NCBI GenBank assembly: GCA_018303545.1
Contig: JAGVXY010000010.1
Span: 1,643-65,642, forward strand
Origin: Candidatus Woesearchaeota archaeon
Lineage (GTDB): Archaea; Nanobdellota; Nanobdellia; SCGC-AAA011-G17; JAGVXY01
Length of the DNA: 64,000 bases
Reading direction: 5' to 3'
Of this stretch, positions 54,676 through 56,705 are shown in pieces. Below the pieces are notes generated by a model, which saw nothing but the letters and a program-made list of their open reading frames with translations, did not search any database and was not told the DNA's origin. Positions within the stretch are counted from its first letter, which is position 1, and each line of letters begins with the position of its first letter. The position numbers were made by a program, and so were the translations under genes.

Positions 54676-55932
54676 TTACGTTTTTAAATCATATTTTGTG
54701 ACTTCTTTGATTTTGGCATTAACCATAGATCCTAACCGTTTTTCTTTAACAATTATGGGTTTATATGCAAAATTCCGTCCAATAAACGTTCTGTATTTAC
54801 CTATTTCATCTATTAAAATATTTCCTTCCCATCCAATCCATTTTTTATTTTGATTAAATGCGATTTGATCAAAAAGTTTGGTTAGTTTTCTTGATCTTTC
54901 TTTAATAATCCAGGAAGGTATTTGTTTCATTATTGCAGCTTCAGTTCCCTCCCGAGGTACAAATCTTGATATGTTAAGCACAGCCGGTTTTAATTTTTCT
55001 ATTAACTCCAAAGTTTCTTTAAATTGTTCTTCACTTTCTCCGGGAAATCCGCAGATAATGTCTGTTGAAATAGTAATCATCGGAAATTCTTTTCTAAATG
55101 CCTCAACAATAGTTTCAAATTCAGAAACAGTGTACCCTCGTTTCATATTATTAAGAGTTTCATTATTCCCTGATTGAATTGGGATATGGAGAAACTTGAA
55201 TATTTTTTCAGATTTAAAACTTTCAATCATTTCATTCAAAACAGGGATCACATGTTTCGGATTCATCATACCCACTCTAACAAAGAAATCCCCCTCAATT
55301 TTAACAATCTCTTCAAGTAATTTAGGGAGTAAAGATTTTTTAGAATTTTCAAGCCCGTAACATACAGTGTCCTGCGCAGTAATCCAGATTTCTTTGCATC
55401 CTTCTGCTAAAGCCGTTTTTATTTCCGTAATAATCATCTCCTGTGGATAAGAAATAAGTTTGCCTTTGATTAATCTTACAGAACAATACGTGCAGGCAGA
55501 ATAGCAGCCTGAACTGATTGGGACTATTGCAATTATTTTATTATGCCTTATTTTTGGTAAATTTATTTTCACAGTTGCATTCTTTCCAATTACTTCAACA
55601 GATTTTCCTTCCAGGGTAGCCTCCACTACATCTAAAATCTTTGATATATTATGTGTACTAATTAATGACCCATATTTTTTTAATTCCTCTACAAGATTCT
55701 CAGGTATGCATCCAGCAACAATAAAAAATGTTTTCTTAAATTTAGTCTTAAGTTCTCTCAGCCTTCTTAATGCCTTCATATCACCTTTAACAGAGCAAAT
55801 ACTCACTATCAAAATTTCCGCATTTTCGGGAGAATTAACAAGTTCATGTTTCTTTGCAAGCAAACCTTTCATAATTTCTGCTTCTGAAAGATTTACTGAA
55901 CAACCATATACTTCTAGATAGATTTTAACCAT
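54676..55932 (-). CDS. mtaB: tRNA methylthiotransferase (MiaB/MtaB family, archaeal e-MtaB type)
   Basis: N-terminal MTTase domain (YLEVYGCSVNLSEAE), radical SAM GCYSACTYCSV, C-terminal TRAM. Confidence 0.85.
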   Translation of the reverse strand: MVKIYLEVYGCSVNLSEAEIMKGLLAKKHELVNSPENAEILIVSICSVKGDMKALRRLRELKTKFKKTFFIVAGCIPENLVEELKKYGSLISTHNISKILDVVEATLEGKSVEVIGKNATVKINLPKIRHNKIIAIVPISSGCYSACTYCSVRLIKGKLISYPQEMIITEIKTALAEGCKEIWITAQDTVCYGLENSKKSLLPKLLEEIVKIEGDFFVRVGMMNPKHVIPVLNEMIESFKSEKIFKFLHIPIQSGNNETLNNMKRGYTVSEFETIVEAFRKEFPMITISTDIICGFPGESEEQFKETLELIEKLKPAVLNISRFVPREGTEAAIMKQIPSWIIKERSRKLTKLFDQIAFNQNKKWIGWEGNILIDEIGKYRTFIGRNFAYKPIIVKEKRLGSMVNAKIKEVTKYDLKT

Positions 55933-56705
55933 GTTTCTCTCTCATTTTTATTAAATCCCAACAAAGGTTTCAGTAACGGAATTTTAAAATCATATTCTTT
56001 CAAATTTTCTAAAGTATCATTTGTAACTATTGCAAGGACATGCTTAGGCACCAATTCAAAAAATTTCAGATCTTTAGGATAATATTTTTCAATTAAACTA
56101 TAATTTATCTTGTTCCCAAAAAGTTTTAATCCGCACCCTCTTTTCATTATAAAATAAGCCGCAAGTAAGCTTTCTTCATTTTCTAAATAGACTGCAACTT
56201 CCCCTTCTATTCCAACAGGCAATCCCCCGGCTCCAAGAAAGCTTTCATTATATAATAACTTCTTGCCATTAATTATTTCAATTCCTATTACACAGTCCGC
56301 ACCTTTCATCTTTACTTTTGCATTGGTTTTTTCGACAATATATGAACCAATTCTTTCATTGACTTTCTGTGAACCCTCAGGATAATCTTTATCCACTCTT
56401 TGAGTTTCAACTTTAAATGTGCCTTTGGTATATAATGAAAGTGCATCTTCTTCAAGATTATCAGAATAAAAAGCAGGTGAAAAAGAAAATATCCCAAACG
56501 TATGTTTTAATACATCAACGCAATTTTCTTTTGAATTTAAAACGATTCTCCCTCTTGTTTTTTTTATATTTTCGTAAGATTTATTCTCTCTTTTAAGCAT
56601 CTTTTTTAGATTATCAATTAATTTATTCTCAAATAAAGGTCTATTTTTGCCCTTTAGTGCAATTTCTGAATACCGTATTATATAGCAATCTATTTTCATG
56701 CTCAT
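55914..56705 (-). CDS. ThiI-like THUMP-domain protein with degenerate/truncated PP-loop (SGGIDS replaced by ENEES)
   Basis: ThiI-type start IIRYSEIALKGKNRPLFE. Linker GGLPVGIEGEVAVYLENEESLLAAYFIMKRGCGL aligns to ThiI GGLPVGtqGkvlvLlSGGIDSPVAaylmMKRG. Only 263 aa. Confidence 0.6.
   Translation of the reverse strand: MSMKIDCYIIRYSEIALKGKNRPLFENKLIDNLKKMLKRENKSYENIKKTRGRIVLNSKENCVDVLKHTFGIFSFSPAFYSDNLEEDALSLYTKGTFKVETQRVDKDYPEGSQKVNERIGSYIVEKTNAKVKMKGADCVIGIEIINGKKLLYNESFLGAGGLPVGIEGEVAVYLENEESLLAAYFIMKRGCGLKLFGNKINYSLIEKYYPKDLKFFELVPKHVLAIVTNDTLENLKEYDFKIPLLKPLLGFNKNERETWLKSI

What the first reader, a model, noticed from the sequence alone, without database searches (positions are those of the whole stretch)
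55914..56705. ThiI appears split: THUMP protein with an ablated PP-loop here, THUMP-less PP-loop enzyme 17 kb away
- The 263-aa protein starts like ThiI (YSEIALKGKNRPLFE) and retains the GGLPVG linker motif.
- Where ThiI has LLSGGIDSPVAAYLMMKRG it reads VYLENEESLLAAYFIMKRG, so the ATP-binding PP-loop is replaced.
- It then ends ~100 aa early.
- The gene at 38860..39495 is the converse: an intact SSGIDSPVA PP-loop plus CxxC/CC cysteines typical of Fe-S-type archaeal ThiI, but no THUMP domain.
- Together they look like a two-protein ThiI: a tRNA-binding pseudo-enzyme plus a catalytic subunit.
Basis: partly seen in the sequence, partly recalled or inferred. Interest (0 to 1): 0.6.

Follow-up and report, generated by a model that had tools for sequence, protein, structure and literature searches.

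The report
Dead ThiI plus separate catalytic half
This small archaeal genome encodes a tRNA-binding ThiI look-alike with a dead catalytic domain and, 16 kb away, a free-standing live catalytic domain; they probably pair up to put sulfur on tRNA, which would finally give a job to an orphan protein whose structure has been known since 2005.

Summary
ORF A (55914..56705, minus, 263 aa) has ThiI's ferredoxin-like and THUMP domains and the GGLPVG linker. Its PP-loop domain is shrunken and has lost SGGxDS, the CxxC region, the ATP-binding loop and the C-terminal cysteine loop. ORF B (38860..39495, plus, 211 aa) is only the PP-loop domain, with SSGIDS and the CxxC+C cysteines of [4Fe-4S]-type archaeal ThiI/TtuI.

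Neither is a one-off. More than 80 A-type and more than 110 B-type proteins occur in Woesearchaeota, Nanoarchaeota and Thermoplasmata. ORF A belongs with Pyrococcus PH1313 (PDB 1VBK), a ThiI-like protein of unknown activity.

The two-subunit reading is plausible but unproven (about 0.5).
- Canonical ThiI works in trans across its dimer, and A keeps exactly the trans-acting parts.
- A-type and B-type genes lie within 3.5 kb of each other in five other loci.
- A always sits among tRNA-sulfur genes.

Against it:
- A is far more often next to IscS/IscU and a TtuA/NcsA-like thiolase than next to B.
- Pyrococcus also has a full-length active enzyme.
- No interaction was shown.

B's constant neighbour is a small cysteine-bearing protein (38607..38867) homologous to the C-terminal domain of ThiF.

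The parts
55914..56705 (-). ORF A, 263 aa (NCBI aa from the second Met). [quoted passage not shown]
   Evidence: Domain and family matches. PDB sequence search: 1vbk_A at E 4e-29. AF2 model pLDDT 95, pTM 0.89. Foldseek: 1vbk_A TMq 0.86, 4kr7_A 0.79.
56628..56672 (-). YSEIALKGKNRPLFE, residues 12-26. This is the NFLD 'bottom active-site loop', which in T. maritima ThiI reaches into the active site of the other subunit.
   Evidence: E14, K18, N21, R22, F25 and E26 are invariant in 42 A-family sequences. Trans action is described in PMC4041423 section 20. pLDDT is lower (68) for residues 11-20, as expected of a mobile loop.
56211..56228 (-). GGLPVG inter-domain linker, residues 160-165.
   Evidence: G161 and P163 are invariant in the A family. 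In TmThiI, the linker residue Gly168 hydrogen-bonds Asp319 of the other monomer.
56136..56192 (-). VYLENEESLLAAYFIMKRG, residues 172-190. This is strand 1 and helix 1 of the former PP-loop domain, with ENEES in place of SGGIDS.
   Evidence: Alignment. No S[GS]G.DS in any 180-300 aa homolog. PH1313 reads HDELS at this position.
55947..55976 (-). LLKPLLGFNK, residues 244-253. This is the retained counterpart of ThiI's (I/V)RPLxGxDK motif; the Asp is replaced by Asn.
   Evidence: P247 and L248 are invariant in the A family. The motif is aligned to TmThiI 310-320.
38860..39495 (+). ORF B, 211 aa. It is a free-standing ThiI/TtuI-type PP-loop pyrophosphatase domain, starting exactly at strand 1 with no NFLD, THUMP or linker.
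   Evidence: Pfam ThiI 209 bits. TIGR00342 positions 174-371 and NF006222 at 187 bits. PDB hits match only the PPase domains of 2c5s and 4kr6.
38884..38910 (+). SSGIDSPVA, the intact PP-loop (ATP-binding).
   Evidence: S9, G11, D13 and S14 are invariant in 42 B-family sequences.
39115..39126 (+). CLLC, the CxxC motif: two of the three putative [4Fe-4S] ligands.
   Evidence: C86 and C89 are invariant. The CXXC+C class is described in PMC9825150.
39361..39366 (+). CC, residues 168-169. C169 is the third conserved cysteine.
   Evidence: C169 is invariant and C168 is at least 90% conserved.
38607..38867 (+). Small ORF of 86 aa from the TTG start; homology begins near Met7, so ATG 38625 is the likelier start. 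It overlaps the start of B by 8 nt. It is a ThiF-C-terminal-domain-like ('TCL') protein with an invariant Cys.
   Evidence: It has no Pfam or NCBIfam family. It, or a ThiF carrying the same domain, lies beside B in nearly all B loci sampled.
54676..55932 (-). MiaB-like-B/MtaB-type radical-SAM tRNA methylthiotransferase. Its start overlaps the end of ORF A by 19 nt, so the two probably form an operon.
   Evidence: TIGR01578 at 418 bits. The same A-then-MtaB order occurs in the six loci closest to the window, L004-L009.
15273..16205 (+). TtuA/NcsA-like PP-loop thiolase (ISGGKDS, zinc ribbon). It is the only other PP-loop gene in the window. In other Woesearchaeota its ortholog lies directly downstream of the A-type gene.
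   Evidence: The L002 ortholog scores 187 bits on NF049949 (TtuA) and 138 bits on NcsA.

Best explanation
ORF A and ORF B are the two halves of a heteromeric tRNA 4-thiouridine (s4U8) synthetase.

A is a pseudo-enzyme.
- Its ferredoxin-like and THUMP domains grip the acceptor stem and the 3'-CCA end and act as the ruler that selects U8.
- Its shrunken, ATP-blind PP-loop-like domain survives as a dimerisation handle.

B supplies the chemistry.
- It pairs with that handle in the way two pyrophosphatase domains pair in the canonical ThiI homodimer.
- It binds ATP at SSGIDS and adenylates U8.
- It delivers sulfur through a [4Fe-4S] cluster held by C86, C89 and C169.

In the canonical homodimer each active site is already composite: the pyrophosphatase domain comes from one chain, while the tRNA-binding domains and the KGKNR loop come from the other. 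An A:B heterodimer would therefore rebuild exactly one complete site.

Shown here:
- the domain anatomy;
- conservation of the trans-acting elements in A and of the catalytic elements in B;
- the family relationships and gene neighbourhoods.

Inferred:
- the A:B contact;
- the substrate and the position modified;
- cluster binding by B;
- the sulfur route, possibly through the neighbouring Cys-bearing ThiF-CTD-like protein.
For: 1. Complementary anatomy. A has NFLD, THUMP, the linker and a dead PPase domain. B has only a live PPase domain that starts at strand 1.

2. Published structure of T. maritima ThiI with RNA.
- The dimer forms through the PPase domains.
- NFLD and THUMP of one subunit place U8 in the PPase site of the other.
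- The NFLD loop Ser12-Arg21, with Lys17, points into the other subunit's active site.
- Linker Gly168 bonds Asp319 of the partner.

3. A keeps exactly those trans-acting elements under strict conservation, although its own site is dead. Invariant in the A family: E14, K18, N21, R22, G161, P163, P247, L248. B keeps D145 (at least 90%) and K146.

4. A is a folded, selected protein. AF2 gives pLDDT 95 including the remnant domain, and there are more than 80 homologs of 240-300 aa, all without a PP-loop.

5. Both families occur in the same lineages: Woesearchaeota, Nanoarchaeota and Thermoplasmata.

6. Co-localisation.
- B lies 2.3-3.4 kb from A in L032, L033 and L040.
- PP-loop-less THUMP ThiI paralogs of 397 and 360 aa lie 2.7 kb from B (L112) and overlapping B (L139).
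- That is 5 observed against 0.6-1.5 expected, P 0.0004-0.02.

7. A is always embedded among tRNA-sulfur genes. The order is A then MtaB in the window and in L004-L009, and IscS-IscU-A-TtuA/NcsA in about half of 51 loci.

8. The 80 best genome loci come from 80 different assemblies, so no genome among them shows both an A-type and a full-length ThiI.

9. The full-length Woesearchaeota ThiI in L023 sits upstream of Rpp30 as A does, so A looks like the successor of a real ThiI.

10. Precedent for a THUMP adaptor with a separate catalytic subunit: Tan1 with Kre33 (PMC11109946, listed).
Against: - No interaction, activity or paired co-evolution was tested.
- A and B are 16.4 kb apart here. They were within 10 kb in only 3 of 51 A loci, in 2 of 28 B loci, and in 0 of 6 further B loci.
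- L032, L033 and L040 share one gene order and may represent a single evolutionary event.
- A is much more often adjacent to IscS (27/51), IscU (18/51) and a TtuA/NcsA-like thiolase (25/51, sometimes with overlapping genes).
- A has lost the GQVASQT 'DI-loop', which forms part of the dimer interface in TmThiI.
- PH1313, the crystallised family member, was solved as a homodimer, and Pyrococcus also has an active full-length TtuI (PF1288). The A family is therefore not always the only ThiI.
- B's constant partner is ThiF or the TCL protein, not A.
- B's closest full-length relatives differ from A's.
- Whether this genome has a full-length ThiI outside the window is unknown.
Confidence: 0.5

Rival explanations
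1. A and B are functionally independent. B, together with ThiF or the small ThiF-CTD-like protein, is a self-sufficient thiolase acting on tRNA or on another substrate. A is a non-catalytic tRNA-binding protein, probably a PH1313-like homodimer, for example a chaperone or a regulator of tRNA sulfur modification.
For: - B is always beside ThiF or TCL and rarely beside A.
- The B family extends to lineages and loci where no A-type gene was seen nearby.
- PH1313 crystallised as a dimer on its own, and Pyrococcus has an active full-length TtuI as well.
- B's closest full-length relatives are not A's.
Against: - B lacks every known tRNA-recognition element of ThiI (NFLD, THUMP), and ThiI needs the CCA end read by THUMP.
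- A conserves the loop whose only described role is at the partner's active site.
- A-like and B genes co-localise more than expected.
- A TCL-like ORF also lies beside one full-length CxxC-type ThiI (L096), which ties TCL and B to the ThiI pathway.
Confidence: 0.25
2. A is the tRNA-presenting or sulfur-relay adaptor of a different enzyme encoded next to it: the TtuA/NcsA-like PP-loop thiolase (window 15273..16205), or more generally the IscS/IscU-fed thiolation and methylthiolation enzymes such as MtaB. It does not work with B.
For: - The order IscS-IscU-A-TtuA/NcsA-like is conserved. The thiolase is within 2 kb in 23 of 51 loci, and its gene overlaps A in L002 and L014.
- In the window's own clade, A overlaps an MtaB-like gene.
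- In L032 a ThiS/SAMP2-like gene overlaps the end of A.
Against: - The TtuA/NcsA-like proteins are complete enzymes with their own zinc fingers. From general knowledge of the family, they act as homodimers at U34 or U54, far from the positions 6-10 that THUMP rulers reach.
- A's remnant domain is ThiI-type. It hits the B HMM, not the ATP_bind_3 family.
- In the window, A and the TtuA/NcsA-like gene are 40 kb apart.
- Clustering of genes of one theme does not require physical pairing.
Confidence: 0.15
3. A is merely a decaying ThiI gene in a reduced genome and has no function.
For: A has lost all catalytic motifs and about 100-130 residues relative to full-length ThiI.
Against: - The ORF is intact.
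- More than 80 homologs share the same architecture down to 30% identity, with invariant residues.
- The AF2 model is confident throughout.
- A crystallised relative exists.
- The operon context is conserved.
Confidence: 0.03

Closest known systems
[quoted passage not shown]
   Same: It shares the NFLD, THUMP and a reduced PP-loop-type domain. SGGxDS is absent at the same position (HDELS in PH1313, ENEES in A). It is the best sequence match (E 4e-29) and the best structural match (TMq 0.86). Its activity has never been demonstrated.
   Different: A is 44 residues shorter and only about 26% identical. It comes from a DPANN archaeon in which no full-length ThiI was seen in the window, whereas Pyrococcus also has the active full-length PF1288. 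The searched literature proposes no partner for PH1313.
Canonical ThiI/TtuI homodimer (T. maritima 4KR6/4KR7, B. anthracis 2C5S)
   Same: A's N-terminal domains and B's catalytic domain each match the corresponding parts. The proposed A:B pair copies the composite, trans-acting active site of the homodimer.
   Different: There are two genes instead of one. One chain has a dead, shrunken catalytic domain and the other has no RNA-binding domains. The pair would have one active site per dimer rather than two. A lacks the DI-loop part of the interface.
[4Fe-4S]-dependent archaeal TtuI (M. maripaludis MMP1354, P. furiosus PF1288)
   Same: B has the CXXC+C cysteines, invariant across its family, together with the PP-loop.
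   Different: Those enzymes are single chains with NFLD and THUMP, whereas B is the catalytic domain alone. Cluster binding by B was not tested.
NF006222 / PRK08349 'hypothetical protein' (stand-alone ThiI-type PP-loop proteins of about 198 aa)
   Same: It has the same single-domain architecture, and B matches over profile positions 1-186 of 198.
   Different: B scores 187 bits, below the curated cut-off of 251, so it is a related rather than a member sequence. NCBI names the identical protein 'QueC', which the scores do not support: ThiI 209 bits against QueC 36 bits.
THUMP adaptor plus separate catalytic subunit (Tan1/THUMPD1 with Kre33/NAT10), and pseudo-enzyme paralog partners in tRNA thiolation (Ctu2/Ncs2 with Ctu1/Ncs6)
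   Same: The logic matches: a THUMP protein without catalysis presents the tRNA as a molecular ruler (PMC11109946 title and abstract), and U34 thiolation uses a two-protein Ctu1/Ctu2 complex (PMC10067955 abstract). That Ctu2 is a PP-loop-less paralog rests on my own knowledge.
   Different: The enzyme families, the target positions and the domain of life all differ. This is an analogy only and says nothing about membership.

Membership tests
ThiI/TtuI tRNA uracil 4-sulfurtransferase (TIGR00342), tested on ORF A | N-terminal ferredoxin-like domain followed by a THUMP domain of ThiI type | tested here: met
   PF22025 at 66 bits and PF02926 at 42 bits. TIGR00342 profile positions 2-200 are matched. 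Foldseek TMq is 0.79-0.80 to 4kr7 and 2c5s.
ThiI/TtuI tRNA uracil 4-sulfurtransferase (TIGR00342), tested on ORF A | PP-loop SGGxDS that binds ATP | tested here: not met
   ENEES replaces SGGIDS. The ATP-contacting GQVASQT loop and the Arg264/Met267 region are deleted.
ThiI/TtuI tRNA uracil 4-sulfurtransferase (TIGR00342), tested on ORF A | Catalytic cysteine (Cys344 equivalent) or the CXXC+C motif | tested here: not met
   The regions that carry these cysteines are absent from A.
ThiI/TtuI tRNA uracil 4-sulfurtransferase (TIGR00342), tested on ORF A | Score above the curated whole-protein cut-off | tested here: not met
   144.7 bits against a cut-off of 264.5.
ThiI/TtuI tRNA uracil 4-sulfurtransferase (TIGR00342), tested on ORF B | PP-loop pyrophosphatase domain with SGGxDS, the DK motif and a conserved cysteine | tested here: met
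   PF02568 at 209 bits over profile positions 5-196 of 197. S9, G11, D13, S14, K146, C86, C89 and C169 are invariant.
ThiI/TtuI tRNA uracil 4-sulfurtransferase (TIGR00342), tested on ORF B | NFLD and THUMP RNA-binding module in the same chain, and a score above the cut-off | tested here: not met
   B starts at strand 1 of the PPase domain. TIGR00342 scores 199.9 bits against 264.5, matching profile positions 174-371 only.
PH1313-like ThiI-like proteins, tested on ORF A | NFLD and THUMP plus a reduced PP-loop-type domain that lacks SGGxDS | tested here: met
   phmmer finds 1vbk_A at E 4e-29, with HDELS aligned to ENEES. Foldseek gives E 8.5e-26 and TMq 0.86.
PH1313-like ThiI-like proteins, tested on ORF A | Dimer formation | not testable with these tools
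   1VBK is reported as solved as a dimer. No multimer prediction or coordinates were available here.
[4Fe-4S]-dependent TtuI subclass, tested on ORF B | CXXC plus a third Cys in the catalytic domain, ligating a [4Fe-4S] cluster | tested here: inconclusive
   The sequence motif is present and invariant. Cluster binding itself needs biochemistry.
NF006222 / PRK08349 stand-alone PP-loop proteins, tested on ORF B | Curated NCBIfam cut-off | tested here: not met
   187.1 bits against a cut-off of 251, although profile positions 1-186 of 198 are covered.
QueC (NCBI's name for the protein identical to ORF B) | QueC family score | tested here: not met
   TIGR00364 scores 31.7 bits against a cut-off of 150. 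PF06508 scores 36 bits against 209 bits for ThiI.
Two-subunit (heteromeric) ThiI, the proposal tested here | A and B present together in the same genomes and physically associated | tested here: inconclusive
   A and B share a contig in the window, L032, L033 and L040, and A-like genes lie beside B in L112 and L139.

The most novel reading that the evidence does not exclude
s4U8 synthesis in DPANN and some other archaea is carried out by a three-piece ThiI.
- A PH1313-like pseudo-subunit docks the tRNA and lends its KGKNR loop in trans.
- A free [4Fe-4S] PP-loop subunit does the chemistry.
- A small Cys-bearing protein derived from the C-terminal domain of ThiF takes the place of the rhodanese domain as sulfur donor or dock.

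This would assign a function to the orphan PH1313 family. It would also define a new sulfur-relay domain.
Probability: 0.25. Interest if true: 0.75.

Novelty: new variant of a known kind. Interest (0 to 1): 0.6.

Why it matters
- PH1313 was crystallised in 2005 and is still listed as a ThiI-like protein with no confirmed activity.
- Reviews also note that s4U synthesis is unexplained in archaea that lack a recognisable Fe-S-type thiI.
- A heteromeric ThiI would explain both points and correct annotations: B is currently named QueC or 'hypothetical'.
- It would add a clear case of an enzyme homodimer with trans-acting sites evolving into a pseudo-enzyme plus enzyme pair.
- Every element is directly testable with recombinant proteins.
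- The small ThiF-CTD-like partner of B points to an undescribed element of archaeal sulfur trafficking.

Tried and rejected
- **Contig-length matching.** I compared 'longest contig' lengths between the A and B hit lists to infer same-genome co-occurrence. Only one further match appeared (166,628 bp, L040/P0200). MAG contigs are too short for this to be informative.
- **NCBI accession proximity** through the listing of cluster members. Too few accessions were returned to be useful.
- **Fused A-linker-B input for AlphaFold.** The MAFFT alignment (A3) mis-aligned A's remnant domain onto B. The tool returns no PAE or coordinates and refuses non-window sequences, so the job was not submitted.
- **AlphaFold of the small ORF.** The single-sequence model was unusable at pLDDT 51.6.
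- **Literature search** for a split or heteromeric ThiI, a PH1313 partner, or TtuI paralogs. Nothing was found. One key paper (Liu 2012, PMC3481272) is not held.
- **'Simple gene fission' rejected.** A retains a degenerate catalytic domain, and B's nearest full-length relatives differ from A's.
- **'A belongs to another THUMP family' rejected.** Trm11, Trm14 and CDAT8 reach only TMq 0.38-0.45.
- **'B is QueC' rejected**.
- **IscS/IscU in the window.** None was found: 13345..14505 is enolase.
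Full report
**1. The observation**

Both ORFs exist as described.

ORF A (55914..56705, minus strand, 263 aa):
- Pfam ThiI_fer covers residues 8-76 (66 bits) and THUMP covers 94-152 (42 bits). A weak, sub-threshold match to the ThiI PP-loop domain covers the last 46 residues (19.1 bits against a cut-off of 20.5).
- The ThiI equivalog TIGR00342 matches only its first 200 of 373 positions.

ORF B (38860..39495, plus strand, 211 aa):
- It is the converse. Pfam ThiI matches full length (209 bits), and TIGR00342 matches positions 174-371.

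The quoted strings are all present.

An alignment with full-length ThiI shows what A keeps and what it has lost.
- Kept: strand 1, helix 1 (SLLAAYFIMKRG), two or three further strands, and the (L/I)(K/R)PL motif of the old catalytic domain.
- Lost: SGGIDS (now ENEES), about 45 residues carrying the CxxC/ATP-binding helix, the GQVASQT loop, and the last 60-70 residues with the catalytic cysteine loop.

So 'ends about 100 aa early' is only partly right. The shortening is internal as well as terminal.

A six-frame motif scan and HMM scans found no other ThiI-like gene in the window. The only other PP-loop gene is a TtuA/NcsA-like thiolase at 15273..16205.

**2. Neither protein is a one-off**

The window comes from a Candidatus Woesearchaeota MAG.
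- Among the 120 best relatives of A, all 86 proteins of 180-300 aa lack the PP-loop. Nearly all of the 360-397 aa proteins have it.
- B has more than 110 single-domain relatives of 200-220 aa. They occur in Woesearchaeota and Nanoarchaeota, and also in Thermoplasmata and a 'Methanobacteriota' genome.

Family alignments give these conserved positions.
- A family, invariant: R11, E14, K18, N21, R22, F25, E26 (the YSEIALKGKNR loop); G161 and P163 (linker); R189 and G190; P247. L248 is at least 90% conserved.
- B family, invariant: S9, G11, D13, S14 (PP-loop); C86 and C89 (CxxC); C169; K146.

AlphaFold2 with the A-family alignment gives pLDDT 95 and pTM 0.89 over the whole chain, remnant domain included. 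Only the KGKNR loop is less certain. A is therefore a folded, selected pseudo-enzyme and not a decaying gene.

**3. What A is**

- By sequence, the best solved relative is PH1313 of Pyrococcus horikoshii (1VBK, E 4e-29). It reads HDELS where the PP-loop should be.
- By structure, 1VBK is again first (TMq 0.86). True ThiI structures follow (0.78-0.80), and other THUMP enzymes lie far behind (0.45 or less).
- The literature calls PH1313 a 'ThiI-like protein' that lacks conserved ThiI residues, has a smaller PP-loop domain, was solved as a dimer, and has no confirmed activity. It is also called a 'truncated form of TtuI'.

But A does belong to a family that is already known as an orphan.

**4. 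What B is**

- B matches only the pyrophosphatase domains of B. anthracis and T. maritima ThiI.
- It carries the CXXC+C signature shown to bind an essential [4Fe-4S] cluster in M. maripaludis and P. furiosus TtuI.
- It resembles NCBIfam NF006222 (PRK08349, 'hypothetical protein') but scores below its cut-off.
- NCBI's name for the identical protein, QueC, is not supported by the scores.

**5. Why pairing is mechanistically natural**

The T. maritima ThiI-RNA structures show the following.
- The functional unit is a homodimer held by the pyrophosphatase domains.
- NFLD and THUMP of one chain bind the acceptor stem and the CCA end, and place U8 at the catalytic site of the other chain.
- The NFLD loop Ser12-Arg21, with Lys17, folds onto the other chain's active-site loop.
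- Linker residue Gly168 bonds Asp319 of the other chain.

Each active site is thus already built from two chains. A keeps the trans-acting parts under the strictest conservation in its family, although its own site is gone. B keeps the catalytic parts, including D145 and K146, the counterpart of Asp319-Lys320. An A:B dimer would rebuild one complete site.

This is inference from homology. No A:B contact was computed or measured.

**6. Genomic evidence**

A scan of one genome per species returned 80 loci from 80 different assemblies. Fifty-one of them carry an A-type gene. Two conserved contexts appear.
- In the window's own clade (L004-L009), A is followed by an MtaB-like methylthiotransferase, as here, where the two genes overlap by 19 nt.
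- In most other Woesearchaeota and Nanoarchaeota the order is HTH regulator, IscS, IscU, A, TtuA/NcsA-like thiolase, (pseudouridine synthase), RNase P Rpp30.

Counts across the 51 loci:

| Neighbour of A | Loci (of 51) |
|---|---|
| IscS | 27 |
| IscU | 18 |
| TtuA/NcsA-like thiolase | 25 |
| Rpp30 | 31 |

B lies 2.3-3.4 kb from A, divergently transcribed, in L032, L033 and L040.

A metagenome scan with the B family gave about 28 stand-alone B loci.
- In L112 a 397-aa ThiI paralog without PP-loop, CxxC or GQVASQT lies 2.7 kb from B.
- In L139 a 360-aa PP-loop-less paralog overlaps B convergently.

That is five co-localisations against 0.6-1.5 expected (Poisson P 0.0004-0.02). The three DPANN cases share one gene order and may be a single event. 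Six further B loci had no A within 10 kb. Genome-wide co-occurrence could not be tested.

The full-length Woesearchaeota ThiI in L023 (STGIDS, CIVC) is A's closest full-length relative and sits upstream of Rpp30 as A does. A therefore looks like the degenerate successor of a real ThiI. B's nearest full-length relatives are different proteins, so this is not a simple recent fission.

**7. B's constant partner**

The 86-aa ORF at 38607..38867 overlaps the start of B by 8 nt and has no Pfam or NCBIfam family.
- It is homologous to the C-terminal roughly 85 residues of PRK12475-type ThiF/MoeB adenylyltransferases. It is 56-59% identical to the ThiF C-termini in L164 and L168, and C15, E57, G64 and K69 are invariant.
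- In nearly every B locus sampled, B is directly flanked by such a small protein or by a ThiF carrying the domain.
- One full-length CxxC-type ThiI (L096) also has such a neighbour.
- The family is small: 95 cluster representatives among 1.84 billion. About half are free-standing and about a third sit at the C-terminus of 289-353-aa proteins.
- Its role is unknown. A Cys-based sulfur-relay or docking role, analogous to the rhodanese domain of E. coli ThiI, is my speculation.

**8. Verdict**

I judge a heteromeric ThiI (A as the tRNA-docking pseudo-subunit, B as the catalytic subunit) to be the best single explanation, at about 0.5.

The rivals:
- A and B are independent (0.25).
- A serves the neighbouring TtuA/NcsA-like or MtaB-like enzymes (0.15).
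- A is gene decay (0.03). This is effectively excluded.

Points against the main reading:
- A-B linkage is weak compared with A's linkage to IscS and TtuA/NcsA.
- A has lost part of the canonical dimer interface.
- Full-length TtuI coexists with PH1313 in Pyrococcus.
- No interaction data exist.

I found no paper proposing a partner for PH1313 or a split ThiI in the searchable library. THUMP adaptors working with separate catalytic subunits (Tan1-Kre33) and two-protein thiolases (Ctu1-Ctu2) are known principles. The finding is therefore a new variant of a known kind. It is of moderate to good interest and directly testable.

Noticed in passing
window 38607..38867 (+); also L040 7732-7998, L165 9744-10004, L166 9738-10004, L169 9705-10004, L001 10621-10890, L086 10694-11002: A small ORF overlaps the start of ORF B. 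It belongs to an unannotated family homologous to the C-terminal domain of PRK12475-type ThiF/MoeB and has an invariant Cys. It, or a ThiF carrying the domain, flanks stand-alone B-type genes almost universally. Pfam gives only sub-threshold TBP and DUF3378 hits. The family has just 95 cluster representatives in 1.84 billion.
   Followed up: yes
L002-L067 (A-type loci), e.g. L012 and L030; window 54676..55932: A-type genes sit in a conserved cluster: HTH regulator, IscS, IscU, A, TtuA/NcsA-like thiolase, Rpp30. In the window's clade the order is instead A followed by an overlapping MtaB-like methylthiotransferase. The window itself has no IscS or IscU.
   Followed up: yes
L112 13385-14578 and L139 741-1823: Near-full-length (397 and 360 aa) THUMP-bearing ThiI paralogs have also lost the PP-loop, the CxxC and the GQVASQT loop. 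Each lies beside a stand-alone B-type gene. They appear to be independent grades of the same degeneration.
   Followed up: partly
window 38860..39495: The identical NCBI protein is named '7-cyano-7-deazaguanine synthase' (QueC). The scores say ThiI-type PP-loop domain (209 bits) rather than QueC (36 bits), so this is probably a misannotation that recurs in several Woesearchaeota entries.
   Followed up: partly
window 38076..38414 (-) and 39545..39970 (+): A thioredoxin-fold protein with a lipoprotein-like signal (LFLSGCSN) and a VKOR-family membrane protein flank the small-ORF/B operon. They look like an extracytoplasmic disulfide-forming pair in a DPANN archaeon and are probably unrelated to ThiI.
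   Followed up: no
L032 10819-11013: A 64-aa ThiS/SAMP2-like gene ending in GG overlaps the stop of the A-type gene. A 228-aa ThiF without the C-terminal domain precedes B on the other strand. E1, Ubl, IscS, IscU, A, B and the TtuA/NcsA-like thiolase all lie within about 6 kb.
   Followed up: partly
L033 8484-9998: The IscU gene in the cluster is 504 aa instead of about 125. The insert follows GNPTC and has LAGLIDADG-like motifs. It looks like an intein, but this was not verified.
   Followed up: no
L086 8091-11002: A same-strand run of ThiF, a 290-aa LarE-like PP-loop protein (SGGVDS), B and a TCL-like 102-aa protein, next to a thiazole-synthase-like gene. This is another sulfur-transfer cluster built around B.
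   Followed up: no
window 56872..58218 (+): A 448-aa ORF directly upstream of A on the other strand has a lipoprotein-like N-terminus (LFSCGN) and no Pfam match at E 0.01 or better.
   Followed up: no
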